Assembly (NCBI GenBank): GCA_035632975.1
Contig: DASQFV010000099.1
Coordinates: 1-44,873 of the forward strand
Source: Nitrospiraceae bacterium
Lineage (GTDB): Bacteria > Nitrospirota > Nitrospiria > Nitrospirales > Nitrospiraceae
Direction: 5' to 3'
Length of the DNA: 44,873 nucleotides
The notes under the pieces were generated by a model. That model did no database searches. It was not told the origin of the DNA and saw only the letters and a list, made by a program, of their open reading frames with translations. The stretch's first letter is position 1. Each line of letters opens with the position of its first letter. Below are positions 19,569 through 38,913 of this stretch, piece after piece. The position numbers were made by a program, and so were the translations under genes.

Positions 19569-19576
19569 TGCTTAGG

Positions 19577-20059
19577 CTAGGTTGTGGTTGAGCGAATGCG
19601 TTGGATCAGCGATGTGGTGGAGACGTCGGGGACCAAAGGAATGGTACGGACGACTCCGCCGCGCGCTTCGACGATCTCGCGGCCGACGATGCGTTCCACC
19701 GCCCAATCTCCGCCTTTGACGAGGACATCCGGCTGCAATGCGGCGATCAGGCCCTGGGGGTCCGGTTCATCGAACAGGATCACATAATCGACACAGCCGA
19801 GCGCAGCGACCACTTCCGCTCGCTGCGCTTCCGAGACGATCGGCCGATCCGGTGCCTTGTTCAAACTCCGGACGGACGCGTCGCTGTTGACGGCGACGAC
19901 AAGCAGGTCGCCCAGGTCTTTCGCGGCCCGGAGGTAGCGCGTATGGCCCACGTGCATGAGATCAAAACAGCCGTTCGTGAACACGATACGTTTCCCTTGG
20001 GTCCGCGCCGCTTGTAGAAGTAGGACGAGCTGGTCTCTGGTCACAACTTTCACGGACAT
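19577..20059 (-). CDS. rfaE2: D-glycero-beta-D-manno-heptose 1-phosphate adenylyltransferase (RfaE/HldE domain II only)
   Basis: Cytidylyltransferase motif FTNGCFDLMHVGHTRYL. The 160-aa size corresponds to a stand-alone domain II. Confidence 0.85.
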   Translation of the reverse strand: MSVKVVTRDQLVLLLQAARTQGKRIVFTNGCFDLMHVGHTRYLRAAKDLGDLLVVAVNSDASVRSLNKAPDRPIVSEAQRAEVVAALGCVDYVILFDEPDPQGLIAALQPDVLVKGGDWAVERIVGREIVEARGGVVRTIPLVPDVSTTSLIQRIRSTTT

Positions 20060-20105
20060 ATCTGCATCATACCGACTGTGCGCGCGGATGGAAAGAGACG
20101 GAACA

Positions 20106-21266
20106 CTACTCGGTCTCGTCGTGGCTCACGCCGCCTAACCCAATCACCGACGACCCGTGCTTGGCAATCAGCGCGTCCATCGCCTCGATGGCTTTCGTCC
20201 GCCGTTGGTCGAACAGCCCGGGCGGCGCGGGTGTCAAGGAGGAGAGCGCGAGCCCGGCCAAGCGGTACTCGGTGCCGAGCCGAATGACTTCCCGTAGTCC
20301 TTGTTGGACGGTCGGCCACATCTCGGGATCGTAGTTCAGCGGGTGCGGAAAGCGATGCTGCTTGGTTGTGATGGCGAAACGGGCGGTTTTCAGCTTCAAC
20401 GTGCAGGATCCGGCGGCCAAGCCTTCCTGTCGGAGCTCCCGCGCCAGGTCGCGGAGGAATCCGCGCAGGGTTCGCTCAAGAAACGGGCGATCATGTGTAT
20501 CGTGTTCGAATGTGATCTCGTGGCTGAGGCTTTTGGATTCGCGATCGGCCACCACCGGTTCGTGGTCGATCCCCCGCGCCAGTTCTCGAATCCAGTGGAG
20601 TCGCGTGCCGAAGATATGACGCAAGGGTTGATCCCAGCGTTGGTCCAACAGCTCGCCGATTGTCTTGAGTCCGAGCGGTTCCAGGCGCGCGGCGGTTTTG
20701 GGACCGATCCCCGGCAGTGCGCGCAGAGGCCGCAGCGCTAAGAATGCTTCTTCCGTACCCGGTGGGACCGTCACCAGTCCATCCGGCTTGTGACTATCCG
20801 CTGCAATTTTGGCGACGGTCTTGCCGGTCGCGACGGCGATGGTGCAGCGCAATCCCGTGGCCTCGGACAGCGTATCCTTCACGAGTTGTCCGAGTGAGCG
20901 AGGATCGGGATGGCGGGTCTGGATCTGTGTCGTGTCGGCATAAAACTCGTCGATGCTGCTCCATTCGGTGAGCGGGAATAACTGATCGGTCACGGCCCGC
21001 ATCGCATCATGCAGCTGTCGATACAGGGGCCGATCAGGAGGAAGCAGAATGAGGTTGGGACAGAGCTGGAGGGCTTTCGCTGTCGGCATCGCCGAGTGGA
21101 TGCCGAATGGCCGCACGGCGTAGCTGGCCGCGGCGATGATCCCACGTGGCGGTGGACCGCCGACCGCGACCGGTTTACCGGCGAGGCTCGGGTCCTTCAC
21201 CACGGCCGCTGAGGCGAACATGGCGTCGACGTCCCCGAAGAGGATCTGGCGCGACCAACGCATCAT
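20106..21266 (-). CDS. dinB: DNA polymerase IV (Y-family translesion polymerase)
   Basis: ILFGDVDAMFASAAV, SIDEFYAD, and the HhH region LPGIGPKTAARL. Confidence 0.9.
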   Translation of the reverse strand: MMRWSRQILFGDVDAMFASAAVVKDPSLAGKPVAVGGPPPRGIIAAASYAVRPFGIHSAMPTAKALQLCPNLILLPPDRPLYRQLHDAMRAVTDQLFPLTEWSSIDEFYADTTQIQTRHPDPRSLGQLVKDTLSEATGLRCTIAVATGKTVAKIAADSHKPDGLVTVPPGTEEAFLALRPLRALPGIGPKTAARLEPLGLKTIGELLDQRWDQPLRHIFGTRLHWIRELARGIDHEPVVADRESKSLSHEITFEHDTHDRPFLERTLRGFLRDLARELRQEGLAAGSCTLKLKTARFAITTKQHRFPHPLNYDPEMWPTVQQGLREVIRLGTEYRLAGLALSSLTPAPPGLFDQRRTKAIEAMDALIAKHGSSVIGLGGVSHDETE

Positions 21267-21282
21267 CGAACATCGTCACAGG

Positions 21283-22020
21283 TCAAAGGTCATTCGTCAA
21301 TTGCAGAGAAGATATGATGGTACTCGCCTCGGATAAAGAGGAGACTAGACCCTCGGATGGAGAAAAAGCCAGTTCCAGTTGTCCGTTCTGTCTGGTCGCT
21401 ACGGCACAGGAGGATTGTTCCTTGTTTTCCACGAATGCCGAATGCCGATTGACGTGTGACGGGTTCAGTTCCTGTAACAATCCCCGACAGATGCCGCAAT
21501 GGTGCCGACGCGGCTGAATCGTCCGTCGCTGGCGTCGGTACACTCGGCCGCATCGCCGACAGCGCCAGGCAAATCGCGCCAGGGCGAGAACTTCCTTCTT
21601 TAACGAATGGTAGATGGTGATCGCCAGGGTGCCGTCCCGATTCATCTCGGTCATCTTGCGGAGAAAATCCGCTCCATGATTCGGCCGCCGCTTCAGGATG
21701 TCGTATTGCCATTGATGAATCATTTCGTGCGCCAGCGTACTCACGATCTCCTGCTCGCCGTACTCGCTCCGCTGGACAACTTGATGGAATAGGGGAAGGG
21801 ACAGGCGAATCTCGCGTCTGGTTGGCGGGCGAAGACCATCCCGATCCAGTCGGGGCCGCGGCCCTCGACAACTCACGAACATGCCGACCGAAGAGGTCAG
21901 CCGGCGGCTCCAGACGAGATCGATCGGGGGTAGCAGGCCCGCGAAGTAGCGGCCATTCAGTTCGCTCCACATCTGGGTCAGATGCTGCGAGGTCACTGGA
22001 GGGGATTGGCGTCGAGACAT
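21283..22020 (-). CDS. SprT-like zinc metalloprotease domain protein with C-terminal Cys4 zinc ribbon
   Basis: LNGRYFAGLLP, HExxH as LAHEMIHQW, then CRRCGRVY...HHCGIC. It lies 16 nt upstream of dinB on the same strand. Confidence 0.75.
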   Translation of the reverse strand: MSRRQSPPVTSQHLTQMWSELNGRYFAGLLPPIDLVWSRRLTSSVGMFVSCRGPRPRLDRDGLRPPTRREIRLSLPLFHQVVQRSEYGEQEIVSTLAHEMIHQWQYDILKRRPNHGADFLRKMTEMNRDGTLAITIYHSLKKEVLALARFAWRCRRCGRVYRRQRRTIQPRRHHCGICRGLLQELNPSHVNRHSAFVENKEQSSCAVATRQNGQLELAFSPSEGLVSSLSEASTIISSLQLTNDL

Positions 22021-23585: not shown

Positions 23586-23697
23586 GGGTAGCGATTCTAG
23601 GCAACCTGCTGTCACCTGTCAAACGTGATTCGCAGGAGTGAATTGATCGCTCAATGTGGCGATGACTCATAGGGCGGAAGAAAACACTTCAGTTCCT

Positions 23698-23735
23698 GAG
23701 AGCGAAGCGAGAACGAAGCCGGAAGGCTTTTACGC
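23698..23735 (-). repeat. Repeat family B, partial (one arm only)
   Basis: CTGAGAGCGAAGCGAGAACGAAGCCGGAAGGCTTTT matches the 5296-5335 arm of copy B1. It lies in the 5' extension of ORF 23656, which argues for the downstream start at 23761. Confidence 0.6.
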
Positions 23736-23760
23736 CGTCCTATGTTATAGTCCGCGCGTC

Positions 23761-25017
23761 ATGGCGCACGACCAACCAGTCAAAGCCTTAGTGATCGCGC
23801 TCACCGACCATGTGGCGACGGCGGTCTATTCGATTAATCGTCTGCAACCGGATTCGCTCTGCTTCGTGCTGCCTGAAGGGGCGAAATCGCTCGTAGAGTC
23901 CGAGGTCCAGCCGAAGATCGAGCACATGCCTAGACGGTGGGACTGGGTGGTGATGGCGAAGACCTGCGAATTTGTCGGCTGTTATCAGACGCTCGCTAGG
24001 ACACTCCCGGAGATGTTGCGTACATGGGATGTGCAGTCAGGCGAGCTCGTCGTCGATGTGACGGGGGCCACACCAGCCATGGCGGGTGCACTGACGTTGG
24101 TCACCATGCCGATGAGTTCGCGGATCGTGTCGCTCGTGCCGGCGCAAGAGGGACAGGAGGGGGACAGGATTGATATCGCCGGACAGCCGTTCGTATGGAC
24201 GCAGGGGAATCCGTGGGATGAGGCGGCATCTGTCTCACGTCGCGAGGGCTGTGAGCTGTTCAACCGGAGATTGTTTGCCGCAGCGGCGAAGCTGTTCCGC
24301 GAGGTCGAAGCACGGGTGAGCGGCGGGCAGAAACCGCTCTATCGTGCCTTCGGAGACCTGGCTGATGGCTACGATCTGTGGGAGCGATTTCACTATCGTC
24401 AAGCCTGGGAGAAACTCAGGATTGCCGTGAAGGCCTTCGAGATGGCGTCCCTGTGGGGCGGACTACCAGGACTCACGTCGCTGTTACCAGCTATCAAAGC
24501 GAATGCGGGATTCTTGGAAAAGCTCGTTCTCGATCCTGCTCCCGTGAAAGACATGCAAGCCCCCGATCTCCTAGCCCATGCCGGACGGCGACTGCATGGC
24601 TTGCACGATCCGGAAGCGGCCATGGTCTCGCTCGTTCGTGCCCTCGAAGCCTTTGCCCAACGACAACTGTTCAAGCAATTCACGATCAAGACCTGGGACG
24701 TGCAGCTGGAGCAATTGCCGCAGGCGCTACGAGAAACCTGTCGGTCCTGTTGGCTGGAAGATCTCGACGGCAAGTACAAATTGCCGTTGCAGGCGCAGTT
24801 TCGGGCACTGGCCGCATTGGGCGACCAGATGGGCCAAGCCTTTTTGCGCGAGTGGCCGACGATGAAGCCCCTGCTCGACGCCGCCAACCATGCTGTCCTC
24901 GGCCACGGTTTCGAGCCGGTCAAAGCCGAGCGGGTGCAGCAGCTGTACGAAGTTGTCATCAAGCTATCGGGCGTCAGTGAGACATCGTTGCCCAAGTTTC
25001 CAATGCTGAGCCTCTAA
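23761..25017 (+). CDS. Orphan CARF-domain protein with C-terminal HEPN-like helical domain (TIGR02710/Csx1-Csm6-like architecture)
   Basis: N-terminal Rossmann-like region ending in VDVTGATPAMAGAL (compare CARF D-x-T-G-G-T-K-x-M). C-terminal AGRRLHGLHDPEAAMVSLVRALEAFAQRQL and AANHAVLGHGFEPV (compare R-N-x-S-x-L-A-H-G). Confidence 0.6.
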   Translation: MAHDQPVKALVIALTDHVATAVYSINRLQPDSLCFVLPEGAKSLVESEVQPKIEHMPRRWDWVVMAKTCEFVGCYQTLARTLPEMLRTWDVQSGELVVDVTGATPAMAGALTLVTMPMSSRIVSLVPAQEGQEGDRIDIAGQPFVWTQGNPWDEAASVSRREGCELFNRRLFAAAAKLFREVEARVSGGQKPLYRAFGDLADGYDLWERFHYRQAWEKLRIAVKAFEMASLWGGLPGLTSLLPAIKANAGFLEKLVLDPAPVKDMQAPDLLAHAGRRLHGLHDPEAAMVSLVRALEAFAQRQLFKQFTIKTWDVQLEQLPQALRETCRSCWLEDLDGKYKLPLQAQFRALAALGDQMGQAFLREWPTMKPLLDAANHAVLGHGFEPVKAERVQQLYEVVIKLSGVSETSLPKFPMLSL

Positions 25018-25089
25018 CCCGGCGTGCTCGGGGAAATCTTGAGGACACTGAACATGGTTCAGAATGTCGTCCAAGGCGGTCAAGCGAGA

Positions 25090-25491
25090 TCACTTTTTGC
25101 CGCACGCAATTTTCCATACAGATTGACCCATACTGCCTGGCATGACTAGTACCCACTTACCTACTTGTGAGTTGGTATAAACTACCGTTCCACTTCCCAT
25201 ATTGCCCGAGAATTCCTTGAGCGCAAGCACCCGGCTGCGCTCCTCTGCGCAGTCGAATTCCCATTGTTCCTTGGCAGTCAAAAACCTGATACCCCCCACG
25301 GTCTGTACAGTCTTGTAGTCGTAGAATTGCCACATCTTCACCAGATTACTGTTGCGGCGTATGGTGGCTGGATCCACGTATACAGTCTTTCCTGCTTCGT
25401 CGCTCTCACCAACTTTTATCCACTCCGCATACGCCGGACTACTACTCAACACCAGGAGAGTTATCGCGATCAGTCGTTTCATGTGCCTCAC
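25090..25491 (-). CDS. Secreted Adhesin_E-like (surface-adhesin protein E family) small protein
   Basis: Signal peptide MKRLIAITLLVLSSSPAYA, W..V, YVDPATIRR, KMWQFYDY, FDCAEERSR, and the C-terminal Cys in WKIACGKK. Confidence 0.65.
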   Translation of the reverse strand: MRHMKRLIAITLLVLSSSPAYAEWIKVGESDEAGKTVYVDPATIRRNSNLVKMWQFYDYKTVQTVGGIRFLTAKEQWEFDCAEERSRVLALKEFSGNMGSGTVVYTNSQVGKWVLVMPGSMGQSVWKIACGKK

Positions 25492-25517
25492 AGTGACCAG
25501 TTAGGTTGACCGCGCGA

Positions 25518-25909
25518 TCACTTGTTGCCGCAGGCGACTTTCCACAGAGTTTGGTCAAGACTACCTGGTGAAACTGGTAGTCTTGCGTTTGCCTGAAGCG
25601 CGATCAAGCAAATTGCCACTTCCTAATATTGCCCGAAAAATACAGAACCGCAAACCCCCTAATGCGCTGTTCGGCACAGTCATATTCCATTTGCGCCTTT
25701 GCCGACAAATATGAGACGCCCTCCTTGGTTTGTGTTGTCTTGAAGTCGAACAGTACCTCCATCTTCACCAGATCCTCTTCGCGGCGCATGCTGGCTGGAG
25801 CCGCGTATGCGCCCATTCCTGCTTCGACTTTGCCACCAACCGCTACCCAATCGGCATACGCAGGACTGCTACTCAGGAAGAGAGGGATGATTAGGAGCAG
25901 TCGTTTCAT
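25518..25909 (-). pseudogene. Frameshifted paralogue of the Adhesin_E-like gene
   Basis: The annotated ORF stops after ...FSGNIRKWQFA. The missing C-terminus appears in two other frames downstream: GSGNLLDRASGKRKTT, then PGSLDQTLWKVACGNK-stop ending at 25518. Confidence 0.6.
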
Positions 25910-26331
25910 TAGGTCGTCTCTGTAATAGATCGTGACTACTGCGGGTGGAATTGCGACAGTGTGCTCCCGTTTGAGGGGGCGGTCAAATGAAACTCGGAGC
26001 GGTTTCGCGGCACCTTGTGAGTGGCATGGTCTGATCGCTACGGATGATTGCGAAGAATATCGGCGTGTCTACCCCGAGTGTGGCGCGGTCGTTACCGTAA
26101 GGGGACGGTCAAATGAAACGTGCGAGGCAAGTTGAACGCTGTGGAAGTTTGGCAGAGTGAGATGAAGGAAAGTTGTGTTTGCGGAGGGGGCGACGATCAC
26201 TACTGCACAGTTGTTTTCCAAACAACGGTGTATTACCGTTGAACTGTCTCAGATAGGAAGATGAAAATGGCATGAACAGTTGTAGTTAGTTATAAGCCGA
26301 CAATTGCAACATTCAAGGCATTGACAATACA

Positions 26332-26712
26332 ATGGAAATCAGAATCTATTATGAAGATACCGATTGCGGAGGGGTGGTGTACTACGGCAATTATCTGAAA
26401 TATTTCGAGCGGGCGCGGACGCAGTATTTCGAAGAGCGAGGGTTATCGGTGGCCGGACTCATGAAAGAAGGCACGGTGTTTGTCGTGGTACACGCAGAAG
26501 TGGATTACCGATCTCCAGCCCGCTATGGCGACCGGCTGATCATCGAGACGGTCGTCTCCGACATGACGGCAGCCTCCTTCACGTTTTCGCACGTGGTCCG
26601 AGAACGGGAGAGCCGGCGTGTGGTCGTTGAAGGATCGGCCAGGTTGGCGGCAACGGATGGAAATGGGAAAGTGAAGCGACTCGACAAGGCGATGAGTGCC
26701 GTATTAAAATAA
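26332..26712 (+). CDS. ybgC: YbgC/4HBT-family acyl-CoA thioesterase
   Basis: IRIYYEDTDCGGVVYYGNYLKYFERAR hotdog-fold signature. Confidence 0.85.
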   Translation: MEIRIYYEDTDCGGVVYYGNYLKYFERARTQYFEERGLSVAGLMKEGTVFVVVHAEVDYRSPARYGDRLIIETVVSDMTAASFTFSHVVRERESRRVVVEGSARLAATDGNGKVKRLDKAMSAVLK

Positions 26713-26736
26713 TCGTCGTCAATAAGGAGTCATGAA

Positions 26737-26886
26737 ATGGAAACGGAATGGGTGGGTTATGGAATGTCGCTGGGAAGCTGGCTCATCATGGCCGGCATGG
26801 CGATCGGTGTAGTCGTACTCGGCTGGTGGTTTTTCTTGCCAAACCCGATGGCTAAAGACAGGAAGGACAGGAATAAGAAGCCCTAA
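26737..26886 (+). CDS. Small (49 aa) single-pass membrane protein, absent from the ORF track
   Basis: AAGGAG at 26724-26729 lies 7 nt before the ATG at 26737. The product is METEWVGYGMSLGSWLIMAGMAIGVVVLGWWFFLPNPMAKDRKDRNKKP, a hydrophobic core followed by a basic tail. Confidence 0.5.
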   Translation: METEWVGYGMSLGSWLIMAGMAIGVVVLGWWFFLPNPMAKDRKDRNKKP

Positions 26887-27017
26887 CCCGACTATAAGTA
26901 TTCTCCTCCACCTTGGTCTTCGCCATCGCCAGAGTCATCCAACGTAACGGGGGTTCACCGGTTGCCGGAACGCGCAGCGCGGTGGATACCCAATGGCAAC
27001 GAAGTTGAGCGGTCGGT

Positions 27018-27461
27018 TCAACCCTCTGGTTGGGCACTTTCACCGTGTAGGTGCTGGTTCAGCGCTACTCCAAGCTCTTGGCATTTATTCATGAGGCCTT
27101 CATAGCTCTTGAGGTTGGCGCTGTACTCAGCCGTTGGATACTTGCTCAGATCACCTTGGCTCTTCTCGTAGAACTGCCCGCAGATCTCCCGGAGAGCTTG
27201 GACAGCTTCGAGCAACGCCGCCGTGTATTGGTGGGAACCCTCCAAAGACCCTGACTCTACCTTCAATGCTGATGATAGAGCAGCCAGTTCGGACGCCAAC
27301 CGACCGAGGTCTCTAAAGAGGGTCCCAAAGTCAGTGGCCTTGAAGAGTCCTGGAATTGGGAGTGCCTTGCGCCACGAAAACTTGAAGATCGTGTCGTGGA
27401 TCGCGGCGTACTCGCGAAGGATTGCGTTCGCTCGGATCACTTCCTCCGGAAGGTCCGGCAT
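27018..27461 (-). CDS. Hypothetical helical protein
   Basis: 147-aa ORF with no recognisable motif. It is co-oriented with the neighbouring small genes. Confidence 0.45.
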   Translation of the reverse strand: MPDLPEEVIRANAILREYAAIHDTIFKFSWRKALPIPGLFKATDFGTLFRDLGRLASELAALSSALKVESGSLEGSHQYTAALLEAVQALREICGQFYEKSQGDLSKYPTAEYSANLKSYEGLMNKCQELGVALNQHLHGESAQPEG

Positions 27462-27568
27462 GTGTCACCCCACGAGAATGTGCCTAATGACCCACGCTGA
27501 CCGACCCGGCCCACGAGGAGCGTGGATTGCAACCACAGCGCGATAACCGGGTTTACTGCAGCGCATGA

Positions 27569-27787
27569 CTAGGCATCATCTCTGTTTCGTTTCTCTTGTT
27601 TCCAAGCTCCCCAGGCATAGTAAAAGCCCAACGGCGCACTGATGGCACAAATCCAGGCCAGAACGGGCCAAGTCGAATCCACGAACAGCACAACGGCAAA
27701 CACGGTATAGAGGACCCCCCCAACGAAGTAGACGTACCAAGAAATCTTGCCCTTTCTCTTTAAAGGTGTGTCGATTGGCGAAGTCAT
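27569..27787 (-). CDS. Small two-TM membrane protein
   Basis: 72 aa, with two hydrophobic helices (WYVYFVGGVLYTVFAVVLFV and VLAWICAISAPLGFYYAWGAW). Confidence 0.5.
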   Translation of the reverse strand: MTSPIDTPLKRKGKISWYVYFVGGVLYTVFAVVLFVDSTWPVLAWICAISAPLGFYYAWGAWKQEKRNRDDA

Positions 27788-27870
27788 TCGAGTGCCCCAA
27801 TGCGTCCTGTGATGCCTAACTATGTATTATCCGGTTTCGTATAACAAGCCACTTGCTCTTCATCCGAAAC

Positions 27871-27899
27871 CTCTACGTTCGACGATTCACGTTTCACGG
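27871..27899 (+). repeat. Tandem heptamer repeat (CTCTACG TTCGACG ATTCACG TTTCACG)
   Basis: Four 7-nt units in the intergenic region upstream of the minus-strand gene 27569-27787. Confidence 0.6.
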
Positions 27900-27912
27900 A
27901 TTGCTGGACGGG

Positions 27913-28407
27913 TTAGCCATCGACTTGGCCGCCTGATTCACGAACGCGCTGCACAATATACGCCTGCGTTTCTGGCGACAAGCACGCGAGCGGCAACGTA
28001 CTGAACTGTGACTTGGAGTACAGCAGAAGCCATACTCTAGGGAACTGCCACAGCTCTTTGACGGCGGACCACTGAAGCGTTGTAGGGCCAATGTCCGAAC
28101 TTATGGTGAACGAAGACTCGTCGGCACGGAACGTGGCTTGAGGCTGGTCCATCTGGTGGAACTTGCGCAGCGAGTTGCGGTAGTGAACGACGTAGACAAC
28201 CGTGACGAACGCGATGCCCAGCACCAGCACGGCCGCAAGCGTACCGACAATCCAGGAGGCCATGCCTAACGCAACAAGTACGCCGAGACCGAGTGCGGCA
28301 ACAAGAAGCGCAACGAAAAAGCCGACGCCTACGGAGCGCCGCCAAAATGCGAACACCGCGTGACGCAGAAGCGCCTCGCTGTAGATGAGTGTGGCTTCGT
28401 GGGACAT
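27913..28407 (-). CDS. YcxB-like membrane protein
   Basis: Two TM helices, then a soluble domain FRADESSFTISSDIGPTTLQWSAVKELWQFPRVWLLLYSKSQFSTLPLACL, typical of the YcxB family. The ATG at 28407 is preferred over 28635. Confidence 0.55.
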   Translation of the reverse strand: MSHEATLIYSEALLRHAVFAFWRRSVGVGFFVALLVAALGLGVLVALGMASWIVGTLAAVLVLGIAFVTVVYVVHYRNSLRKFHQMDQPQATFRADESSFTISSDIGPTTLQWSAVKELWQFPRVWLLLYSKSQFSTLPLACLSPETQAYIVQRVRESGGQVDG

Positions 28408-32670: not shown

Positions 32671-33219
32671 TTAGGTCCGTCTTGAAGGAGTCCTACGCCG
32701 TATTCCCAGCTCCCGAGTCGGTTCCGCATTGATTTCTTTCATCCCCCAGTGGGCTCGCTTGGCTTTTTCCCGCTCCGATACAGCGAACAGCACGTGAAAG
32801 GGCGTTGCTCGTCGCGCGCCCATTTCCGCTTGTTCGTTTCCCCAGGCTTCTCCCGCATCCCTCAAGATCTCAAGGAAAGTTTCATACTCTGCTTCGTCGT
32901 CGGATAATACATGGGCCGCATCGGTGATGAGCAGAATATAGCCCTTGGCCGGCAGCCATTCCAGATCGGCCAGACATTCCTCCAAGGCGTCCCAGTTGTG
33001 GCCGAAGTAGTCGGGGAACTCCAATGCCCGTGCGAATTCCGCAAACAGATTTGCCGGCGTCCTGCAGTGACGGCCCTGGATGACCTTCAGCGACAACCCG
33101 GTCGGAGGGCGCACCAGCGATTCGGCGCGCCGCCCGGTTGTGACCATCAGCAATGAGGTCCATGGGGCCTTCGTCGATTGGAGATAGGCGGTCAATGGCA
33201 CTGTGTGTTTCGGAGTCAT
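32671..33219 (-). CDS. Barstar-family ribonuclease inhibitor-like protein with N- and C-terminal extensions
   Basis: NLFAEFARALEFPDYFGHNWDALEECLADLEWL matches the barstar core (fP.YfG.NwDAl.dcL). Confidence 0.7.
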   Translation of the reverse strand: MTPKHTVPLTAYLQSTKAPWTSLLMVTTGRRAESLVRPPTGLSLKVIQGRHCRTPANLFAEFARALEFPDYFGHNWDALEECLADLEWLPAKGYILLITDAAHVLSDDEAEYETFLEILRDAGEAWGNEQAEMGARRATPFHVLFAVSEREKAKRAHWGMKEINAEPTRELGIRRRTPSRRT

Positions 33220-33592
33220 GGTGTCTCACTCAATGGCATGAACGTTCGGGCCCTGCGGACTGAACGGACGGGACAGAGGCAGACGGTACAGTCGGTTCAG
33301 ACGACGAGTATTCCATAAATCTTCCAAGTTCCATCCATAGTTTCGCGTTCGTATTTCGGGGCGAGGCAGCACGGTACGAACCCTAGCACGCACGATCTGG
33401 GAGGATCAACGGGCGTGAAAGAAGTGGGCGTTCGAGGTCGGGAATTGTTGCTATCGCTCATTCGCCAGCGTAGCATCCAATGTATGCATCCTGTTGAGGA
33501 TGTTCGCCAGTCCGGCATCTCCCGGCCACCATACGGGCAGATCGGGCAGGCACGATGCTGACTTACGCTAGGACGAGCCAACGAGGTACAGA

Positions 33593-35917
33593 TTGGAATC
33601 CGCAGTGGACCGGCTTGAGTTTGTGACAGTCGAAGGGCTTCTGGCCTACGGAGAGATGCTGGCGCGTCGTACCGCCGGTGAGGGAATTGCGCTCCCACCT
33701 ATCCCGACTTCCTCAATCGATCGACCACAGCGAACTCGCGACGCCATGGAGAAGATCAGGGCGTTTGTGCGCCGTGCATCAGGGGGCTTTCCCGGGGCGG
33801 AGGAGTATCGGGCTACCCGTCGCGCGGTGATCGAAGAGGGTTGCCGGGGCGATGAACTGGTGTTCTTTGCCGCCTGGAATGCTCTTCTCGCGGCAGGCGA
33901 GTTGACCCCGCTCTTCCGCGTGCCGATCGGGTCAGTGCAGAAGCCGGCGCATCGCCGGCCGGTGGCTATCGTGCCGCGCGCGCAACTGACGCCACAGTTG
34001 GTCGAGGATCGTATCGTGCTGGACTTGGGCGAGGATCGGTTTTGGCTTTTGCCGCGCGATTTAACCGGTCGCACGCTCCTGTTCACGATGCGTCATGGTA
34101 TCTCACGCGTGGAGAGCGGCACCTATCGAGTCGGGCGCCGCCTCGCGAACGTGTTGGATCCTGAGCGAGGCGTCCCCAAAGCCGACGCAGTCGGTGCAGC
34201 CCTGGCTCGGATGCTGGGCGTGGTCGGGCAACAATTGGACTTCCTGCGCATTGACAACTACCTTGATCCGCGCACCTTCGTTCATCTGGTGAGCCAGAGC
34301 CCCAATACGCGGCAACTGTATGAGCGGGTGATCGCGAAGCTGATGCAGGCGCAAGCGCACCATGCTGAGGCACTCTCACCCGCCTGTGATCCCTCATTAG
34401 ACTCCCAGGATTTCGGATGGGTGACAGGTCTGGAGAAGAAGGTGGAAGCCGAGGAGGCCGCAAAGGCATTCGGGGTGGACGTGCAGACTGCCAAGCGCCT
34501 GATCAAACATCCCCTCTACAGCTACCCGGGCGGACATTCCTTCTTCGATGTCTATGTGGATATTGTCGATGGCTTCCGCCGGTTGGGTCATTCTCACCAG
34601 GGGAAGGCCGTGTGTGTGTACAGCCACAGCTCCACGCTCCGGGCGCTCATGATTTATCTCGATCCTCGTCCCTTTCGCGAAGCCTTCACCGAGTTTGGCG
34701 AATATAAGGAGGGACAGGATAACGTCGTTCTGCTGACCTACGAACAGGGACTCTTATCCGGCTATTCCACCGCCGTGGGTCTGTCAGCGCGGGAACGGGC
34801 GGCGCGGGAGACCTGGGTGAAGGTCGAGCGTGAACGCAGAGACCGGATCACGCTCAAGCCCCGACAGATCAAGCGGATCGTGGCATTGGTTTCGGGTGGC
34901 GATTTCGCCGGTGCCGGCGCCGCGTTGAAAGAACTGCGCGTGACAGGACACCGGTTTGGCCTGGAAGTCTACTTCGCCCGGCACGGGTTCTTAGGTCTGG
35001 CCAACAACTGGATCGAAGCGGTGACTGAGGACGATACCCGCGGTATGGGCAGCCATGCGAGCAGTCCGATTGGGAGCAGCCGCTTCGAAGATTTCAAGGA
35101 CGAGCAAGTGCAGCAGGCCACCATGCGGCATCTCAAGCCATACATGGAAGACGGCGCCTTAGTGGTCATTGGTGGGGACGGGAGTCTGCGAGGAGCGCGG
35201 GCGCTCTACGAAGGATTTGGGGTCCAGGCAGTAGGGTTGCCAGGCACGATCGATAATAATCTCGCGGGGACGACCTCCCTGGGTTTTCATTCGGCCGTGT
35301 CTCTTGCGAATCAATCCATCGAGTCGCTGAAGGCCACTAGTTCCGCCATGGGCAGCGTCTTTTTCGTCGAGATTATGGGGGCGGGATCCGGCCATCTCGC
35401 CCTCGCCTGTGCGTATCAGGCCAGAGCTGAAGGCCTCTTGGTCAACGAGCATCCCGATCCCGACGCGTATATCGACGACTTCATCCTGGGCACGCTCAAC
35501 CGCACCTTGGGCGTCGCGAACAAAAGCCATCTGTTTGTGGTGGCAGAACAGACGCCCCATCGCCATCACCCCGATGGCGGCGTGCGCGGTCTTGTCGAGT
35601 ATGTCGCCAGCACACTTACCACGTGGCCACAGTTTCAGGCACGCCCCGGTGAATATTGCCTCGCCCCTGCAACCAAAGCCACGATTCTCGGGCACACGTT
35701 ACGGGGAGCGCCCCCGACCCCCGAGGACAAGACCATCGGACAAGATCTGGCCTATGAAGCGATTCGCCGTCTCGTCAAGGAGCCGGAGCGGGTGGTCGGA
35801 TGCATGTTGGCCTATCGCGGGCCAGGCACTATCGAGGCGATCCCACTCCACGCTGTGGCACCAAAGCAGTTCGACTGGGAGATCTTCGCCCGAATGCACG
35901 GAAGCGAGCTTCCGTAG
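33593..35917 (+). CDS. Three-part fusion: unknown N-domain, histidine phosphatase (PGAM-like), divergent phosphofructokinase-like domain
   Basis: RHG motif LLFTMRHGISRVES and the second His region VYSHSSTLRAL. PFK-family motifs are SGGDFAGAGAA, VVIGGDGSLRGA, LPGTIDNNLAGT and VEIMGAGSGHLAL. The TTG start is uncertain. Confidence 0.7.
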   Translation: MESAVDRLEFVTVEGLLAYGEMLARRTAGEGIALPPIPTSSIDRPQRTRDAMEKIRAFVRRASGGFPGAEEYRATRRAVIEEGCRGDELVFFAAWNALLAAGELTPLFRVPIGSVQKPAHRRPVAIVPRAQLTPQLVEDRIVLDLGEDRFWLLPRDLTGRTLLFTMRHGISRVESGTYRVGRRLANVLDPERGVPKADAVGAALARMLGVVGQQLDFLRIDNYLDPRTFVHLVSQSPNTRQLYERVIAKLMQAQAHHAEALSPACDPSLDSQDFGWVTGLEKKVEAEEAAKAFGVDVQTAKRLIKHPLYSYPGGHSFFDVYVDIVDGFRRLGHSHQGKAVCVYSHSSTLRALMIYLDPRPFREAFTEFGEYKEGQDNVVLLTYEQGLLSGYSTAVGLSARERAARETWVKVERERRDRITLKPRQIKRIVALVSGGDFAGAGAALKELRVTGHRFGLEVYFARHGFLGLANNWIEAVTEDDTRGMGSHASSPIGSSRFEDFKDEQVQQATMRHLKPYMEDGALVVIGGDGSLRGARALYEGFGVQAVGLPGTIDNNLAGTTSLGFHSAVSLANQSIESLKATSSAMGSVFFVEIMGAGSGHLALACAYQARAEGLLVNEHPDPDAYIDDFILGTLNRTLGVANKSHLFVVAEQTPHRHHPDGGVRGLVEYVASTLTTWPQFQARPGEYCLAPATKATILGHTLRGAPPTPEDKTIGQDLAYEAIRRLVKEPERVVGCMLAYRGPGTIEAIPLHAVAPKQFDWEIFARMHGSELP

Positions 35918-36082
35918 CGGGGTTGCGTTGTGGGCGTAGAGGTCGTTTGCTAGAATGGCATTCCTGGACAACATCGCGAGAAGAGCGAAACCCTCGAACT
36001 TCGGGCCTCGAACCCTCGCTCGTCCCGTCTGTCTCGAGCGGCGCGCATCCCGATTGACCAATGACCAGTAACAGCATTGTCT

Positions 36083-37534
36083 ATGCGTAAAGCTAAAATC
36101 GTGTGCACCATTGGCCCCGCCAGCGATTCGCCCGCCTTGCTGGATCAATTAATTGAAAGCGGCATGGACGTGGCGCGCCTCAACTTTTCTCATGGGACCC
36201 ACGATTCGCATGCGCGCGCGGTCAAGGCCATTCGCGACGCAGCGGATCGTCGGCATGTGGCGGTGGCGATCATCCAGGACCTGCAAGGACCGAGGATCCG
36301 GGTTGGAGAAGTCGATCAGGGCGGGCTCGATCTGGGTGCCGGCCAGACTGTGAGGATGGTGACGACTCTGCTCCGGTCAGGCGGTCAACTCGGCGCACAG
36401 TCTATCGCTCCGTCCGGCATGCTTGAGATTCCGGTGTCGTACCAATACCTGGTGCGGGATGTCCAGCCAGGCGCCCGTATCCTGATTGACGATGGGTTAA
36501 TCGAGCTGATTGCTGATCGGATTATCGGCGGCACCGTCGAGTGCGGAGTCGTGACCGGCGGACGACTCACCTCGCACAAGGGCATGAACTTGCCGGATAC
36601 TCGCATCAGCTCCCCCACTCTGACAGACAAAGATCGGGAGGATCTCCGGTTCGGCATCGCGCAAGGGGTGGACTATGTGGCCGTCTCGTTTGTCAGAGGT
36701 CCCGATGACGTAGTGGCCGCAAGGAAATTAGTGTCCGACTGGGGCGGCGACATGCCGATCATTGCGAAGATTGAAAGGCCGGAAGCGATTGAGTGCTTGG
36801 ACGAGATTCTTGATCAGGCGGACGGCGTGATGGTCGCGCGAGGCGATCTGGGAGTGGAGATGGGGCCGGAGGCGGTTCCGCTCCTACAGAAGCGCATTAT
36901 CGCCGAAGCCAACCGCCGCCGCCGCCTCGTGATCACGGCCACTCAGATGCTGGAGTCCATGACGCACCACACGCGCCCGACAAGGGCCGAAGCGTCGGAT
37001 GTGGCTAATGCCGTGCTCGATGGGACCGATGCAGTCATGCTTTCCTCAGAAACGGCGATCGGACAGCACCCGGTTGAAACAGTCCGTGTCATGGACCGAA
37101 TCGTTCGAGCCGCAGAAGCAGGGACTCGACCGGGGCATACGCGCTCGTCCGACGCGCCACGGGGAGCCGGCTCATTCCCGGAAGCCATTTGCAATTCGGC
37201 CTCTTCTGCAGCATCGGTCATTGGGGCGAGCGTCATCGTGGCATTTAGCGAACGGGGTACGACCGCGCGCTTGCTGTCGAAGCAGCGACCTGACTCGTCA
37301 ATTGTTTCATTGACTCCATATGAGTCCGTACGGCGGCGGATGGCGCTGTACTGGGGGGTGATTCCTCACAGGATGCGGCAGATCACTCAAACCGATGAGC
37401 GGATCGATGAAGCGGAACGCCGCCTGAAGACCGAGGGACTGGCGACAACGGGACAGCGGATCGTGATTCTATCAGGGACCAGGATTGGTCAGCCCGGGGA
37501 GACGAATTTCATGAAGCTACACACAGTCAGGTGA
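36083..37534 (+). CDS. pyk: Pyruvate kinase
   Basis: MRKAKIVCTIGPAS, RLNFSHG, MVARGDLGVE and VMLSSETA. Confidence 0.95.
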   Translation: MRKAKIVCTIGPASDSPALLDQLIESGMDVARLNFSHGTHDSHARAVKAIRDAADRRHVAVAIIQDLQGPRIRVGEVDQGGLDLGAGQTVRMVTTLLRSGGQLGAQSIAPSGMLEIPVSYQYLVRDVQPGARILIDDGLIELIADRIIGGTVECGVVTGGRLTSHKGMNLPDTRISSPTLTDKDREDLRFGIAQGVDYVAVSFVRGPDDVVAARKLVSDWGGDMPIIAKIERPEAIECLDEILDQADGVMVARGDLGVEMGPEAVPLLQKRIIAEANRRRRLVITATQMLESMTHHTRPTRAEASDVANAVLDGTDAVMLSSETAIGQHPVETVRVMDRIVRAAEAGTRPGHTRSSDAPRGAGSFPEAICNSASSAASVIGASVIVAFSERGTTARLLSKQRPDSSIVSLTPYESVRRRMALYWGVIPHRMRQITQTDERIDEAERRLKTEGLATTGQRIVILSGTRIGQPGETNFMKLHTVR

Positions 37535-37702
37535 GCGAAAGCGGATGATTGGCCACCCGCACAACGCCAGCGGACTAAGAGCTCCATTCCGCCCGAGCGC
37601 ATGCAGGCTGTTCAAAAAGGCGAGGAGGTACGTACCGCACTTCGTGTGGGCCGCTCGCTCTGGTCCCCCGGGGGAGTACAGATTAGAAGAAAAGAGCACA
37701 CG

Positions 37703-38263
37703 ATGACACCCAACATTGTGGGGCGGCTAGCGTTTATTCTGTGTCAGTTGCTTGCCCTAGTATTGTCGGCCGGAGATGGGCTCGCGCAGACCGGATCCCT
37801 CACGCACTCGCCTTCTGATGTGGTGAAACGATATCTGGCGCTTGATTATAAGGGGGCGCGGCTTGATGCCATCTCGGTCGAGACGGTTACGGCCTACACG
37901 AGTTGGAATGAGGAGCCGGTCTGGGGGCATGTCGTCGTGACGCGAGGTTTTGTGGTGGCGGAGCAGTATCGCCAATGGGAGGTGATCGATAGTCTGGAAG
38001 TCGTGATTCCGGTAACCTTTCAGGTGATAGGCTCGGTATATCTGGAAACCGCCGGTTTCGTCCAGGAGGTTGAGACAGAAGAGGTACGGTTTCGCGTGAA
38101 AGCCGTGAAGAGGCGATGGAGGATTGTCGAGCCGAAGCTTCCCCCTCACGTGGGACTGAAGCGGATGGTGAATCTCGTGCGCGAAGCCTGGATGAAGGAA
38201 ACCGATCCGGCGAAGCGAGACCGTCTTGGGGCGTTGCAGGACGAGTTACGAAAGGCAAAATAA
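37703..38263 (+). CDS. Secreted hypothetical protein
   Basis: The ATG at 37703 is followed by the signal peptide LAFILCQLLALVLSAGDGLAQ. The stop overlaps the next ATG (TAATG). Confidence 0.55.
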   Translation: MTPNIVGRLAFILCQLLALVLSAGDGLAQTGSLTHSPSDVVKRYLALDYKGARLDAISVETVTAYTSWNEEPVWGHVVVTRGFVVAEQYRQWEVIDSLEVVIPVTFQVIGSVYLETAGFVQEVETEEVRFRVKAVKRRWRIVEPKLPPHVGLKRMVNLVREAWMKETDPAKRDRLGALQDELRKAK

Positions 38264-38913
38264 TGATGGGCAAGACCTCGGTGGAGCTGTTGATCTTCGA
38301 CCTGGATGGGACGCTCATCGAGTCCAAATGGGACATTGCCGCGTCGGTGAACCTGACGTTGGCCGAGCTGGGGCTGCCGCAGCGGCCGATCGAGGAAATC
38401 TTTGGGTTTGTGGGGGATGGGGTGAAACAATTGTTGCGCTTGTCGGTCGGCGAGGGCAGTCTGGTCACCTTCGACGAGGCATTGCGGGTGTTCAAGGGCC
38501 AGTACTTGGCCCATTGCCTCGATCGCACGACATTCTATCCCGGTGTTGAACAGGCGCTTGTCCACTTCGAGCGAAAGCGCAAAGCGGTGGCGACCAACAA
38601 ATCGATCGAGTACACAAACGTGATTCTCAAAGGATTGGGGGCACATCATTTCCAGTGTGTCGTCGGCGGGGACAACGGATTCGGACTGAAGCCGGAACCT
38701 GGCATGCTGTTGCATGTGATGGAACAACTGAATGTGCCGAGAGAACAGACCGTACTCGTCGGGGACAGCACCAACGACATCAACGGCGGGCATAATGCGG
38801 GTATCCGCGTCTGCGCAGTCGGCTATGGTATGGGGAATCGGGAGAAGATGGCCGCTTGCCGTCCGGATTGGTTTATTGAACGACCGGAAGAATTACTGGA
38901 GCTCTTTATATGA
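38263..38913 (+). CDS. gph: HAD-superfamily hydrolase (phosphoglycolate phosphatase-like)
   Basis: Motif I LLIFDLDGTLIES, ATNKS, and motif IV VGDSTNDINGGHNAG. Confidence 0.8.
   Translation: MMGKTSVELLIFDLDGTLIESKWDIAASVNLTLAELGLPQRPIEEIFGFVGDGVKQLLRLSVGEGSLVTFDEALRVFKGQYLAHCLDRTTFYPGVEQALVHFERKRKAVATNKSIEYTNVILKGLGAHHFQCVVGGDNGFGLKPEPGMLLHVMEQLNVPREQTVLVGDSTNDINGGHNAGIRVCAVGYGMGNREKMAACRPDWFIERPEELLELFI

What the first reader, a model, noticed from the sequence alone, without database searches (positions are those of the whole stretch)
33593..35917. Unusual fusion of a PGAM-type histidine phosphatase with a divergent PFK-like domain, directly upstream of pyruvate kinase
One 774-aa ORF combines three parts. 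The first ~165 aa have no recognisable motif. The second part is a histidine-phosphatase domain with RHG at nt 34091-34099 and a second His in VYSHSSTLRAL. The third is a phosphofructokinase-family domain. The PFK-like domain keeps GGDGS (nt 35171-35185). Motifs I recall from E. coli PfkA are altered: GGDAPGMN becomes GGDFAGAG, the GGT loop becomes SSP, TIDND becomes TIDNN, and MGR becomes MGA. The histidine-phosphatase fold is that of eukaryotic FBPase-2. A PFK-1-fold plus FBPase-2-fold fusion would be a non-homologous analogue of the bifunctional PFK-2/FBPase-2 regulator. The PFK-like module might instead be a non-catalytic sugar-phosphate sensor. Placement next to pyk suggests a role in controlling glycolysis versus gluconeogenesis.
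Basis: partly seen in the sequence, partly recalled or inferred. Interest (0 to 1): 0.65.

Follow-up and report, generated by a model that had tools for sequence, protein, structure and literature searches.

The report
Nitrospira phosphofructokinase with phosphatase-like N-terminal module
Nitrite-oxidising Nitrospira make their glycolytic enzyme phosphofructokinase as one long protein whose front half is an undescribed, partly degenerate phosphatase-like module, probably a built-in switch for sugar breakdown; it is real, conserved and uncharacterised, but not shown to be a two-way enzyme.

Summary
The 774-aa ORF (33593-35917, +) is real. It is read as one uninterrupted protein in more than 60 independent Nitrospira assemblies, and all four segments are under purifying selection (dN/dS 0.07-0.17). 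The C-terminal part (aa 428-774) is an ATP-type PfkA-like kinase domain. It keeps the ATP/Mg site and the catalytic base (G11, R72, D103, G104, T125, D127, E222, H249, R252). It has fixed changes D129N, R162S, R171A and R243K, and it has lost the classical PEP/ADP effector site. The N-terminal 425 aa form a single conserved module: a cap of about 160 aa with no known family, plus a histidine-phosphatase (PGAM-like) fold (AlphaFold pLDDT 83; Foldseek TM up to 0.77). The fold keeps RHG, K282 and His345, but the general-acid Glu is an invariant Ser. The module is very rare. It was found in Nitrospiraceae (about 279 species genomes), some Nitrospinae, one Desulfatibia MAG and two standalone fragments. 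Pyruvate kinase is adjacent in nearly all Nitrospira loci, either in tandem or divergent. Best reading: a lineage-specific PFK with a built-in phospho-ligand or phospho-His regulatory module. A true kinase/phosphatase analogue of PFK-2/FBPase-2 remains possible but unsupported. I rate it a new variant of a known kind, of moderate interest.

The parts
33583..33586 (+). GAGG ribosome-binding site 6 nt upstream of the TTG start
   Evidence: Read directly from the sequence. The N-terminus MESxxxxLxFVT is conserved in homologues.
33593..35917 (+). Whole fusion ORF, 774 aa plus stop
   Evidence: Full-length homologues.
33593..34072 (+). N-terminal cap/extension (aa 1-160): five helices and three strands, with the motif C84-x-G-x4-F-x3-W95-N96
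   Evidence: No Pfam family. pLDDT is mostly 90-98 over aa 11-110 and 72-83 over aa 111-160. C84, W95 and N96 are invariant down to 22% identity. dN/dS is 0.165.
34073..34792 (+). Histidine-phosphatase (PGAM-like, branch 1) fold, aa 161-400
   Evidence: PF00300 at 24.2-27 bits. Foldseek probability 1.0 and TM 0.6-0.77 to PGAM, TIGAR, PhoE, CobC and PspA. A profile search hits PhoE and PspA at both motifs. dN/dS is 0.113.
34091..34099 (+). RHG motif (R167, H168 the putative phospho-acceptor, G169)
   Evidence: Invariant in 69 of 69 Nitrospira sequences. It aligns to RHG of E. coli GpmA and PhoE.
34310..34312 (+). R240 in SQSPNTR, equivalent to the second active-site Arg (R62 of dPGM)
   Evidence: Arg in 58 of 69 sequences; K, T, S, H or E in the rest. 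The assignment rests on S-P-x-x-R motif spacing and is an inference. MAFFT placed this stretch ambiguously.
34403..34405 (+). Ser271 at the position of the canonical general-acid Glu (E89 of dPGM)
   Evidence: LDSQDFGWVTGLEK aligns with LNERHYGALQGLNK of GpmA. Ser in 69 of 69 Nitrospira sequences and in all distant homologues.
34436..34438 (+). K282, aligned with K100 of GpmA
   Evidence: Invariant in alignments A2 and A3. Alignment. That K100 binds substrate in dPGM is recalled from memory.
34625..34627 (+). His345 in YSHSSTLRAL, the second catalytic His (H184 of dPGM)
   Evidence: hhalign pairs it with AAHGNSLRAL of GpmA. Invariant in all sequences.
34793..34873 (+). Helical linker, aa 401-427
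   Evidence: Helix 399-417 in both models, with low pLDDT at its end. dN/dS is 0.155.
34874..35914 (+). PfkA-like ATP-type phosphofructokinase domain, aa 428-774
   Evidence: PF00365 at 187.7 bits. Hits E. coli, Bacillus and human PFK in the PDB at 1e-30 to 1e-36. Foldseek to PFKs. Below all NCBIfam equivalog cut-offs. dN/dS is 0.069.
35171..35185 (+). GGDGS (D103, and G104 the ATP-type signature)
   Evidence: D529 is D in 64 sequences and E in 5. G530 is invariant.
35246..35260 (+). TIDNN: T125 and catalytic base D127 kept, D129 changed to N
   Evidence: D554 and N556 are invariant.
35354..35356 (+). Ser588 at the position of R162, the 6-phosphate clamp contributed by the neighbouring subunit
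   Evidence: S in 66 sequences, T in 3. Arg is kept in the Nitrospinae homologue P0131.
35375..35383 (+). MGA in place of MGR (R171 changed to A)
   Evidence: Ala is invariant. MGR is kept in the Desulfatibia homologue P0157.
35675..35677 (+). Lys695 at the position of R243
   Evidence: Invariant Lys.
36077..37534 (+). Pyruvate kinase, the conserved neighbour; the true start is probably the ATG at 36083
   Evidence: PF00224 at 374.7 bits and PF02887 at 114.4 bits. TIGR01064 at 522.9 bits against a cut-off of 306.4. Adjacent in nearly all Nitrospira loci, either in tandem or divergent. No terminator-like site lies in the 160-bp gap.

Best explanation
The ORF encodes the Nitrospira-lineage 6-phosphofructokinase.

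Kinase domain. The C-terminal PfkA-type, ATP-dependent kinase domain most likely still phosphorylates fructose-6-phosphate or a very similar sugar phosphate. Its 6-phosphate clamp is remodelled (R162S, R243K), R171 is replaced, and the classical PEP/ADP effector site is absent.

N-terminal module. Fused to the kinase is a lineage-restricted 425-aa module: a ~160-aa cap packed on a histidine-phosphatase (PGAM-like) fold. The fold keeps the phosphate-binding and phospho-acceptor core (R167, H168, K282, H345, and usually R240). It lacks the general-acid Glu, which is an invariant Ser271.

Proposed mechanism. I infer that the module binds a phosphorylated metabolite, or is transiently phosphorylated on His168 by one. 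Through the helical linker it would then gate the kinase. This would replace the lost allosteric site, so that the irreversible PFK step runs only when stored glycogen is to be burnt and not during rTCA-driven gluconeogenesis. The conserved pairing with pyruvate kinase, the other irreversible glycolytic step, fits that role.

Shown: the fusion, the folds, the residue states, the taxonomic distribution, the synteny and the purifying selection. Inferred: kinase activity, the substrate, and the regulatory rather than hydrolytic role of the module.
For: Fusion real and constrained:
- More than 120 full-length clusters.
- 68 intact single-ORF copies from independent assemblies.
- dN/dS of 0.165, 0.113, 0.155 and 0.069 for cap, phosphatase fold, linker and PFK domain.

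Kinase probably active:
- G11, R72, F73, D103, G104, S105, G108, G124, T125, D127, E222, H249 and R252 are kept.
- G104 plus G124 is the ATP-type signature. PPi-PFKs have D104/K124 (established knowledge, recalled from memory).
- The eukaryotic regulatory half, a known non-catalytic PFK fold, has lost D103 and D127 (alignment). This protein has not.
- The Nitrospinae homologue P0131 carries the same module on a nearly canonical PFK with GGDAPGMN, TIDND, R162 and R243. The Desulfatibia homologue keeps MGR.
- The literature counts this gene as the EMP-pathway PFK that serves glycogen catabolism in Nitrospira and Nitrospina.

Effector site lost: R21K, R25V, R54E, R154K and K213N.

Module is a phosphate-binding but atypical histidine phosphatase:
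- Confident model with pLDDT 83.2 and pTM 0.85.
- Foldseek to PGAM, TIGAR, PhoE, CobC and PspA.
- RHG, K282 and H345 are invariant. Glu is replaced by Ser in every member, including 22-38% identical homologues.

Link to pyruvate kinase: the gene is adjacent in nearly all Nitrospira loci, in two orientations.
Against: - No biochemical data exist for any member.
- R162 and R171 are lost and D129 is Asn. In E. coli PfkA, mutations at these sites lower F6P affinity or kcat (recalled from the Hellinga/Berger/Evans mutagenesis papers, not re-read). Activity could therefore be weak, or the substrate could differ.
- The strict invariance of R167, H168 and H345 together with the cap residues C84, W95 and N96 is equally what one would expect of a true enzyme active site.
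- The full-length AlphaFold model is poor (pTM 0.52, PFK C-half pLDDT below 50). No interdomain contact supports an allosteric mechanism.
- I could not check whether these genomes hold a second, canonical PFK.
- Pyruvate kinase linkage is absent in the Nitrospinae and Desulfatibia loci.
Confidence: 0.5

Rival explanations
1. The protein is a true bifunctional kinase/phosphatase. The PFK domain makes a sugar bisphosphate (fructose-1,6- or a 2,6-type bisphosphate). The histidine-phosphatase module hydrolyses it through a phospho-His168 intermediate. The two activities are reciprocally controlled, making this a non-homologous analogue of eukaryotic PFK-2/FBPase-2.
For: - The architecture of kinase plus branch-1 histidine phosphatase in one chain is conserved.
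- R167, H168, K282 and H345 are invariant and R240 is mostly kept.
- A conserved cap (C84, W95, N96) could form a specific substrate pocket.
- TIGAR, a fructose-bisphosphatase, is among the top fold matches.
Against: - The general-acid Glu is an invariant Ser.
- R240 is replaced by S, T, E, H or K in 11 of 69 sequences.
- There is no specific similarity to FBPase-2. The matches are generic, with no PFKFB chain in the best 50, and PDB sequence hits are only E about 0.02.
- Fructose-2,6-bisphosphate signalling is not known in bacteria (established knowledge).
- A PFK/FBPase pair on one chain would be a futile cycle unless tightly regulated.
Confidence: 0.25
2. The PFK-like domain is not a fructose-6-phosphate kinase. 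It is either a non-catalytic sugar-phosphate sensor or a kinase for another substrate. The protein's real activity would then reside in the phosphatase-like module, or in signalling.
For: - D129N, R162S, R171A and R243K are fixed.
- All NCBIfam PFK equivalog and subfamily models score far below their cut-offs, for example 167.9 against 371 and 180.2 against 253.
- The nucleotide loop is altered to GGDFAGAG.
- There is an insertion of about 25 aa between E222 and K243.
Against: - The catalytic base D127, the Mg/ATP ligands D103, G104 and S105, R72, T125, E222, H249 and R252 are all conserved. The known sensor version of the fold has lost D103 and D127.
- Relatives carrying the same module have canonical sites.
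- The PFK domain is the most constrained part of the protein, with dN/dS 0.069.
Confidence: 0.15
3. The long ORF is an artefact: two genes joined by a frameshift, a mis-assembly or a chimera.
For: None found.
Against: - A single uninterrupted tblastn alignment covers aa 1-774 in most of 84 loci from independent MAGs and genomes.
- 68 complete ORFs were extracted.
- The linker is conserved and under purifying selection.
- Fusions of the same architecture occur in Nitrospinae and Desulfatibia at 28-38% identity.
Confidence: 0.01

Closest known systems
Bacterial ATP-dependent 6-phosphofructokinase PfkA (E. coli 1PFK, Geobacillus 3PFK/4PFK; PF00365, TIGR02482)
   Same: The fold is the same, with about 25-28% identity. 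GGDGS with G104 and G124 gives the ATP-type signature. The catalytic base D127 is kept, as are R72, T125, E222, H249 and R252.
   Different: - It carries a 425-aa N-terminal module.
- D129N, R162S, R171A and R243K are fixed.
- The effector-site residues R21, R25, R54, R154 and K213 are replaced.
- There is an insertion of about 25 aa before K243.
- It scores below every curated NCBIfam cut-off.
Eukaryotic PFK-2/FBPase-2 (PFKFB1-4) and TIGAR
   Same: It has one chain with a sugar-phosphate kinase and a branch-1 histidine-phosphatase fold. TIGAR is among the best fold matches (E about 4e-8 to 7e-8, TM 0.56-0.64). It sits at the glycolysis/gluconeogenesis node.
   Different: - The kinase here has the PFK-1 fold, not the P-loop 6PF2K fold. 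There is no PF01591 hit.
- The domain order is reversed.
- The Glu equivalent to E327 is Ser.
- No PFKFB chain is among the top 50 fold matches.
- There is no evidence for fructose-2,6-bisphosphate.
Eukaryotic PFK-1 (tandem duplicated PFK whose C-terminal half became a regulatory ligand-binding domain)
   Same: It is a precedent for a PFK catalytic domain fused in cis to a regulatory domain that binds phosphorylated effectors. The total length is similar, at about 780 aa.
   Different: The regulatory part here is a histidine-phosphatase fold plus cap, not a second PFK fold, and it is N-terminal.
Broad-specificity branch-1 histidine phosphatases PhoE (1H2E/1EBB), PspA phosphoserine phosphatase (4IJ5), CobC and dPGM (1E58)
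   Same: The fold is the same, with TM 0.62-0.77. RHG, the S-P-x-x-R helix, the G-x3-G-L-x-K segment and the H-S/G-x-x-x-R-A-L motif align.
   Different: - The catalytic Glu is replaced by Ser.
- It has a 160-aa N-terminal cap.
- It has insertions at aa 195-230 and 283-305.
- Identity is only 14-20%. Neither phmmer nor hhalign gives a significant full-length match.

Membership tests
Phosphofructokinase superfamily (Pfam PF00365) | Significant match to the family profile over the whole domain | tested here: met
   187.7 bits against a cut-off of 30.9, profile positions 1-275 of 277. PDB PFKs at E 1e-30 to 1e-36.
ATP-dependent 6-phosphofructokinase PfkA (NCBIfam TIGR02482 / NF002872) | Score above the curated equivalog or subfamily cut-off | tested here: not met
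   TIGR02482 gives 167.9 bits against 371.35. NF002872 gives 180.2 bits against 253.
ATP-dependent 6-phosphofructokinase PfkA | Catalytic and ATP/Mg residues G11, R72, D103, G104, T125 and D127 | tested here: met
   All are conserved in 69 Nitrospira sequences. D103 is D in 64 and E in 5. T125 is T or S.
ATP-dependent 6-phosphofructokinase PfkA | Fructose-6-phosphate site residues D129, R162, R171, E222, R243, H249 and R252 | tested here: inconclusive
   E222, H249 and R252 are kept. D129N, R162S/T, R171A and R243K are fixed.
ATP-dependent 6-phosphofructokinase PfkA | Allosteric PEP/ADP effector site (R21, R25, R54, R154, E187, K213) | tested here: not met
   The residues at these positions are K, V, E, K, E and N. 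The list of effector-site residues is recalled from the E. coli and Bacillus structure papers.
ATP-dependent 6-phosphofructokinase PfkA | Enzymatic activity: F6P + ATP gives F1,6BP | not testable with these tools
   No member has been assayed in the literature searched.
Histidine phosphatase superfamily, branch 1 (PF00300) | Profile match and alpha/beta PGAM fold | tested here: met
   24.2-27 bits against a cut-off of 21.7, covering only part of the profile (positions 68-164). Foldseek probability 1.0 and TM up to 0.77 over 235-280 columns.
Histidine phosphatase superfamily, branch 1 | RHG nucleophile motif and second catalytic His | tested here: met
   R167, H168, G169 and H345 are invariant. 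They align to GpmA and PhoE.
Histidine phosphatase superfamily, branch 1 | Second active-site Arg (R62 of dPGM) | tested here: inconclusive
   R240 is Arg in 58 of 69 sequences. The assignment rests on motif spacing.
Histidine phosphatase superfamily, branch 1 | General acid Glu (E89 of dPGM, E327 of FBPase-2) | tested here: not met
   The aligned position is Ser271 in all 69 Nitrospira sequences and in all distant homologues.
PFK-2/FBPase-2 (PFKFB) | N-terminal 6-phosphofructo-2-kinase P-loop domain (PF01591) followed by a C-terminal FBPase-2 domain | tested here: not met
   There is no 6PF2K hit. The kinase is PF00365 and is C-terminal.
PFK-2/FBPase-2 (PFKFB) | Synthesis and hydrolysis of fructose-2,6-bisphosphate | not testable with these tools
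   This needs enzyme assays.

The most novel reading that the evidence does not exclude
The protein is a bacterial, non-homologous counterpart of PFK-2/FBPase-2. In this reading, one polypeptide both makes and destroys a sugar bisphosphate. Alternatively, it couples a phospho-His168 relay fed by a glycolytic phosphodonor to PFK activity. Either way, nitrite oxidisers would have an undescribed switch between glycogen catabolism and rTCA-fed gluconeogenesis. The phosphatase-like module would be a new catalytic subfamily of histidine phosphatases that works without the canonical Glu.
Probability: 0.15. Interest if true: 0.85.

Novelty: new variant of a known kind. Interest (0 to 1): 0.55.

Why it matters
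Nitrospira, including complete ammonia oxidisers, and Nitrospina are the main nitrite oxidisers in soils, wastewater plants, drinking-water filters and the ocean. They fix CO2 by the reductive TCA cycle, store glycogen, and must keep the irreversible PFK step off while gluconeogenesis runs. How they do this is unknown.

Databases label this gene simply "6-phosphofructokinase", "PFK domain-containing protein" or "hypothetical". Metabolic reconstructions count it as a plain PFK. More than half of the protein is therefore ignored.

If the module is the regulator, it is a new way of controlling PFK after the classical effector site was lost. If it is catalytic, it is a convergent analogue of the eukaryotic bifunctional enzyme and a new Glu-less branch of histidine phosphatases.

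Either way the protein is easy to test, because it can be expressed in E. coli and assayed with standard coupled assays. The divergence from curated PFK models may also cause glycolysis to be called incomplete in some genome annotations; I did not test this.

Tried and rejected
- A phmmer search of aa 1-425 against PDB sequences gave only a spurious ThreeFoil match from a low-complexity repeat.
- hhalign of the module profile against E. coli GpmA aligned only the His345 motif, at probability 6.8%.
- The full-length AlphaFold model was poor in the PFK C-half (pLDDT 30-50, pTM 0.52). I drew no conclusion about domain-domain contacts or oligomer state. Its Foldseek search returned only PFKs.
- A profile search with the four distant homologues (A3) against the 5.8-billion-protein index returned only 2 proteins, a limitation of the word index.
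- The metagenome scan found only Nitrospira- and Nitrospinae-type fusions and no further standalone modules.
- The two standalone homologues lie on contigs of 2.8 and 1.6 kb that end just after the gene. Whether a PFK gene follows cannot be seen.
The RNA runs found hold only 8-19% of the words and come from soil metatranscriptomes of relatives.
- The Nitrospira defluvii genome paper (the PMC id I recalled) is not held.
- No promoter-like site was found, and the only terminator-like site lies inside the ORF and is below chance expectation.
- I considered a CRISPR array in the low-GC stretch at 25-28 kb next to the Csm6-like gene. No tandem repeats are present.
Full report
OBSERVATION

The window holds a 774-aa ORF at 33593-35917 (+) with a TTG start. 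A GAGG ribosome-binding site lies 6 nt upstream.

Pfam assigns PFK (PF00365) to aa 428-725 at 187.7 bits, against a cut-off of 30.9. It assigns His_Phos_1 (PF00300) to aa 258-362 at 24.2 bits, against a cut-off of 21.7. Residues 1-166 match no Pfam family.

These are RHG at aa 167-169, His345 in VYSHSSTLRAL and GGDGS at aa 527-531. The next gene, at 36077-37534, is a complete pyruvate kinase.

THE FUSION IS NOT AN ARTEFACT

- A search of 5.8 billion protein clusters returned more than 120 full-length clusters of 770-805 aa at 73-93% identity. Where they carry a name, they come from Nitrospira or Nitrospiraceae.
- A scan of one genome per GTDB species found 279 stretches that encode the N-terminal module. 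The best 80 were all from Nitrospirota, apart from one MAG labelled Deltaproteobacteria and two labelled only "uncultured bacterium".
- In those loci a single uninterrupted tblastn alignment spans aa 1-774, and 68 complete ORFs could be extracted.
- Pairwise dN/dS against the window is 0.165 for aa 1-160, 0.113 for aa 161-400, 0.155 for the linker and 0.069 for the PFK domain. Every part is under purifying selection.

THE PFK DOMAIN

I aligned the domain with E. coli PfkA. My recalled PfkA sequence proved identical to PDB 1pfk.

- Kept: G11, R72, F73, D103, G104, S105, G108, G124, T125, the catalytic base D127, E222, H249 and R252.
- Conservative changes: Y41 to F and R77 to K.
- Fixed changes: D129N, R162S, R171A and R243K. 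These hold in all 69 Nitrospira sequences, with T instead of S at position 162 in three of them.
- Effector site: the residues I recall as forming the PEP/ADP site (R21, R25, R54, R154, K213) are K, V, E, K and N here.
- Phosphoryl donor: G104 plus G124 is the signature of ATP-dependent rather than PPi-dependent PFKs (recalled knowledge).
- Curated models: all NCBIfam PFK equivalog and subfamily models score far below their cut-offs.

The pattern, however, is an intact phosphoryl-transfer machinery with a remodelled sugar-6-phosphate clamp and no classical allosteric site. It is not a dead domain.

Two comparisons support this. First, the regulatory C-terminal half of human PFK-1 is the known case of this fold turned into a ligand sensor. 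It shows GGFEA and TISNN in the same alignment, so it has lost D103 and D127. This protein has kept both. Second, the distant relatives that carry the same N-terminal module have more canonical sites. The Nitrospinae protein P0131 has GGDAPGMN, TIDND, R162 and R243. The Desulfatibia protein P0157 keeps MGR.

THE N-TERMINAL 425 RESIDUES

Rarity. An exhaustive HMMER search of aa 1-425 against 1.84 billion representative proteins gave only 87 hits. Nearly all were fragments of the same family. The distant exceptions were:
- P0131: 794 aa, 38% identity, Nitrospinae MAGs.
- P0157: 785 aa, 31% identity, Candidatus Desulfatibia.
- P0188 (425 aa) and P0190 (409 aa): two standalone proteins on very short contigs.

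Ordinary histidine phosphatases were not reached by this search.

One unit. These homologues align from about residue 60 to about residue 400. The "motif-less" first 165 aa and the phosphatase-like part therefore form a single unit. Invariant residues include C84, W95, N96, R167, H168, S175, G181, S234, S236, P237, N238, T239, F274, G275, T278, K282, P307, G314, H345, S346, S347, E373, Y391 and G396.

Fold. AlphaFold2 models the module confidently, with pLDDT 83.2 and pTM 0.85. Foldseek against the PDB gives branch-1 histidine phosphatases with probability 1.0 and target TM-scores of 0.6-0.77. The hits include Bacillus anthracis and E. coli PGM, TIGAR, human PGAM1, CobC, PhoE, PspA and Rv2419c, at 14-20% identity. 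A profile search of PDB sequences weakly hits PhoE and PspA at both the RHG and His345 motifs. hhalign pairs YSHSSTLRAL with AAHGNSLRAL of E. coli GpmA.

Active-site residues. I added GpmA to the family alignment; its sequence was verified against 1e58. The pairings are as follows:
- RHG pairs with RHG.
- LDSQDFGWVTGLEK pairs with LNERHYGALQGLNK.
- The general-acid Glu (E89) therefore corresponds to Ser271, and K100 to K282.
- Ser271 is invariant in every member, including the most distant ones.
- R240, which by S-P-x-x-R motif spacing is the equivalent of R62, is Arg in only 58 of 69 Nitrospira sequences.

The module is thus a genuine but atypical member of the histidine-phosphatase fold. It keeps the phosphate-binding and phospho-acceptor core, lacks the proton donor, and carries a conserved ~160-aa cap with no detectable relatives.

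GENOMIC CONTEXT

In the window the order is hemL-like aminotransferase (-), barstar-like gene (-), the fusion (+), pyk (+), a 220-aa ORF (+), a HAD phosphatase (+) and two M16 peptidases. Across 84 loci, pyk is adjacent in nearly every Nitrospira locus with enough flank. In the window's clade it lies downstream on the same strand. In more distant Nitrospira it lies upstream and divergent, 86-350 bp away. Linkage that survives an inversion argues for functional coupling. No terminator-like site lies in the 160-bp gap in the window. The Nitrospinae and Desulfatibia loci lack the pyk linkage.

LITERATURE

Genome papers on Nitrospira, comammox Nitrospira and Nitrospina state that glycogen is degraded through a complete Embden-Meyerhof-Parnas pathway. 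They treat the PFK as ordinary. Searches that combined Nitrospira, phosphofructokinase, histidine phosphatase or phosphoglycerate mutase, and fusion or domain architecture found no description of this architecture. Within the library searched, the fusion is undescribed and no member has been characterised.

INTERPRETATION

The best-supported reading is a lineage-specific ATP-PFK whose classical effector site has been replaced by a cis-acting regulatory module built on a degenerate histidine-phosphatase fold. The module would bind a phosphorylated metabolite, or be phosphorylated on His168. It would gate the kinase so that the irreversible glycolytic step, together with pyruvate kinase, operates only during glycogen catabolism in an autotroph that otherwise runs gluconeogenesis.

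The fusion, the folds, the residue states, the synteny and the selection are shown. Kinase activity, the substrate and the regulatory mechanism are inferred. Overall confidence is about 0.5.

The invariance of the His pair and the cap motif favours it. The missing Glu, the variable R240 and the lack of any specific similarity to FBPase-2 count against it. A non-catalytic PFK domain, or one with an altered substrate, stands at about 0.15. An artefact is excluded.

COMPARISON AND NOVELTY

The protein is a member of the PFK superfamily and of the histidine-phosphatase fold. It fails the curated PfkA equivalog thresholds and lacks a defining catalytic residue of branch-1 phosphatases. It is not a PFKFB-family protein: it has no 6PF2K domain and the domain order is reversed.

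I rate it a new variant of a known kind. It is a widespread (about 279 species genomes) but taxonomically narrow PFK architecture with an undescribed module. Interest is moderate (0.55). It is not shown to be a new regulatory principle. It is easy to test, however, and it concerns carbon-flux control in globally important nitrifiers.

Noticed in passing
window 36077-38913; loci L005-L084: The block pyk, a 220-aa ORF (signal-peptide-like N-terminus, no Pfam family) and a HAD_2 phosphatase is conserved as a unit next to the fusion gene. It inverts together with pyk in loci L058, L062, L063 and L084. A HAD sugar-phosphate phosphatase in this block could be relevant to the kinase/phosphatase question.
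   Followed up: partly
window 32671-33219 (-): This is a barstar-like protein (PF01337, 99.9 bits) with a ~45-aa N-terminal extension, divergently transcribed from the fusion gene. It is syntenic in the window's clade. No barnase-like partner was seen among the ORFs examined.
   Followed up: partly
window 23656-25017 (+) and 25000-28000: This is a Csm6-like protein (Csm6 HEPN and 6H domains). It is followed by a ~3-kb stretch of lower GC (0.53-0.56) that holds only small ORFs. No CRISPR-like tandem repeats were found, and no other cas genes were seen in the ORFs scanned. It may be an orphan cOA-activated RNase or a remnant island.
   Followed up: partly
loci L005 and L006; L053 and L061: Two MAGs each carry two contigs with a copy of the fusion gene (95-97% and 90-95% identical to the window), with the same neighbours. 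This is probably strain heterogeneity in the bins rather than true paralogues.
   Followed up: no
locus L060: A MAG labelled Deltaproteobacteria carries a Nitrospira-type copy (77% identity over the full-length protein) with pyk upstream and divergent, on a 3-kb contig. This is most likely a mis-binned Nitrospira contig.
   Followed up: no
P0190 (L086 363-1592) and P0188 (L085 1422-2699): These are standalone homologues of the module without a PFK domain. P0190 has RHA instead of RHG. Both contigs end within about 75 bp of the stop codon, so a downstream PFK gene cannot be excluded.
   Followed up: partly
window as a whole; loci L010, L012, L028: The closest relatives (91-97% identity over the N-terminal module) are soil and groundwater Nitrospira MAGs. 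They include isolates named palsa_1310, 'RCB Rifle_cladeB' and CG24A. From memory, these names belong to comammox clade B Nitrospira. No amo genes lie in the window, so this was not verified.
   Followed up: no
window 16095-22020 (-): The genes mfd (TRCF), a cytidylyltransferase-like gene, a dinB-type Y-family polymerase (IMS) and an SprT-like protein lie in a row on the minus strand. The Desulfatibia fusion locus also has an IMS polymerase and an S24 peptidase next to the fusion gene. This is probably coincidence.
   Followed up: no
window 186-4270 (+): This is a signalling cluster: a PAS histidine kinase, a hybrid receiver-HisKA protein and a receiver-GGDEF diguanylate cyclase.
   Followed up: no
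That is odd for a soil Nitrospira locus. It may reflect environmental contamination of human-labelled runs or a filter artefact.
   Followed up: no
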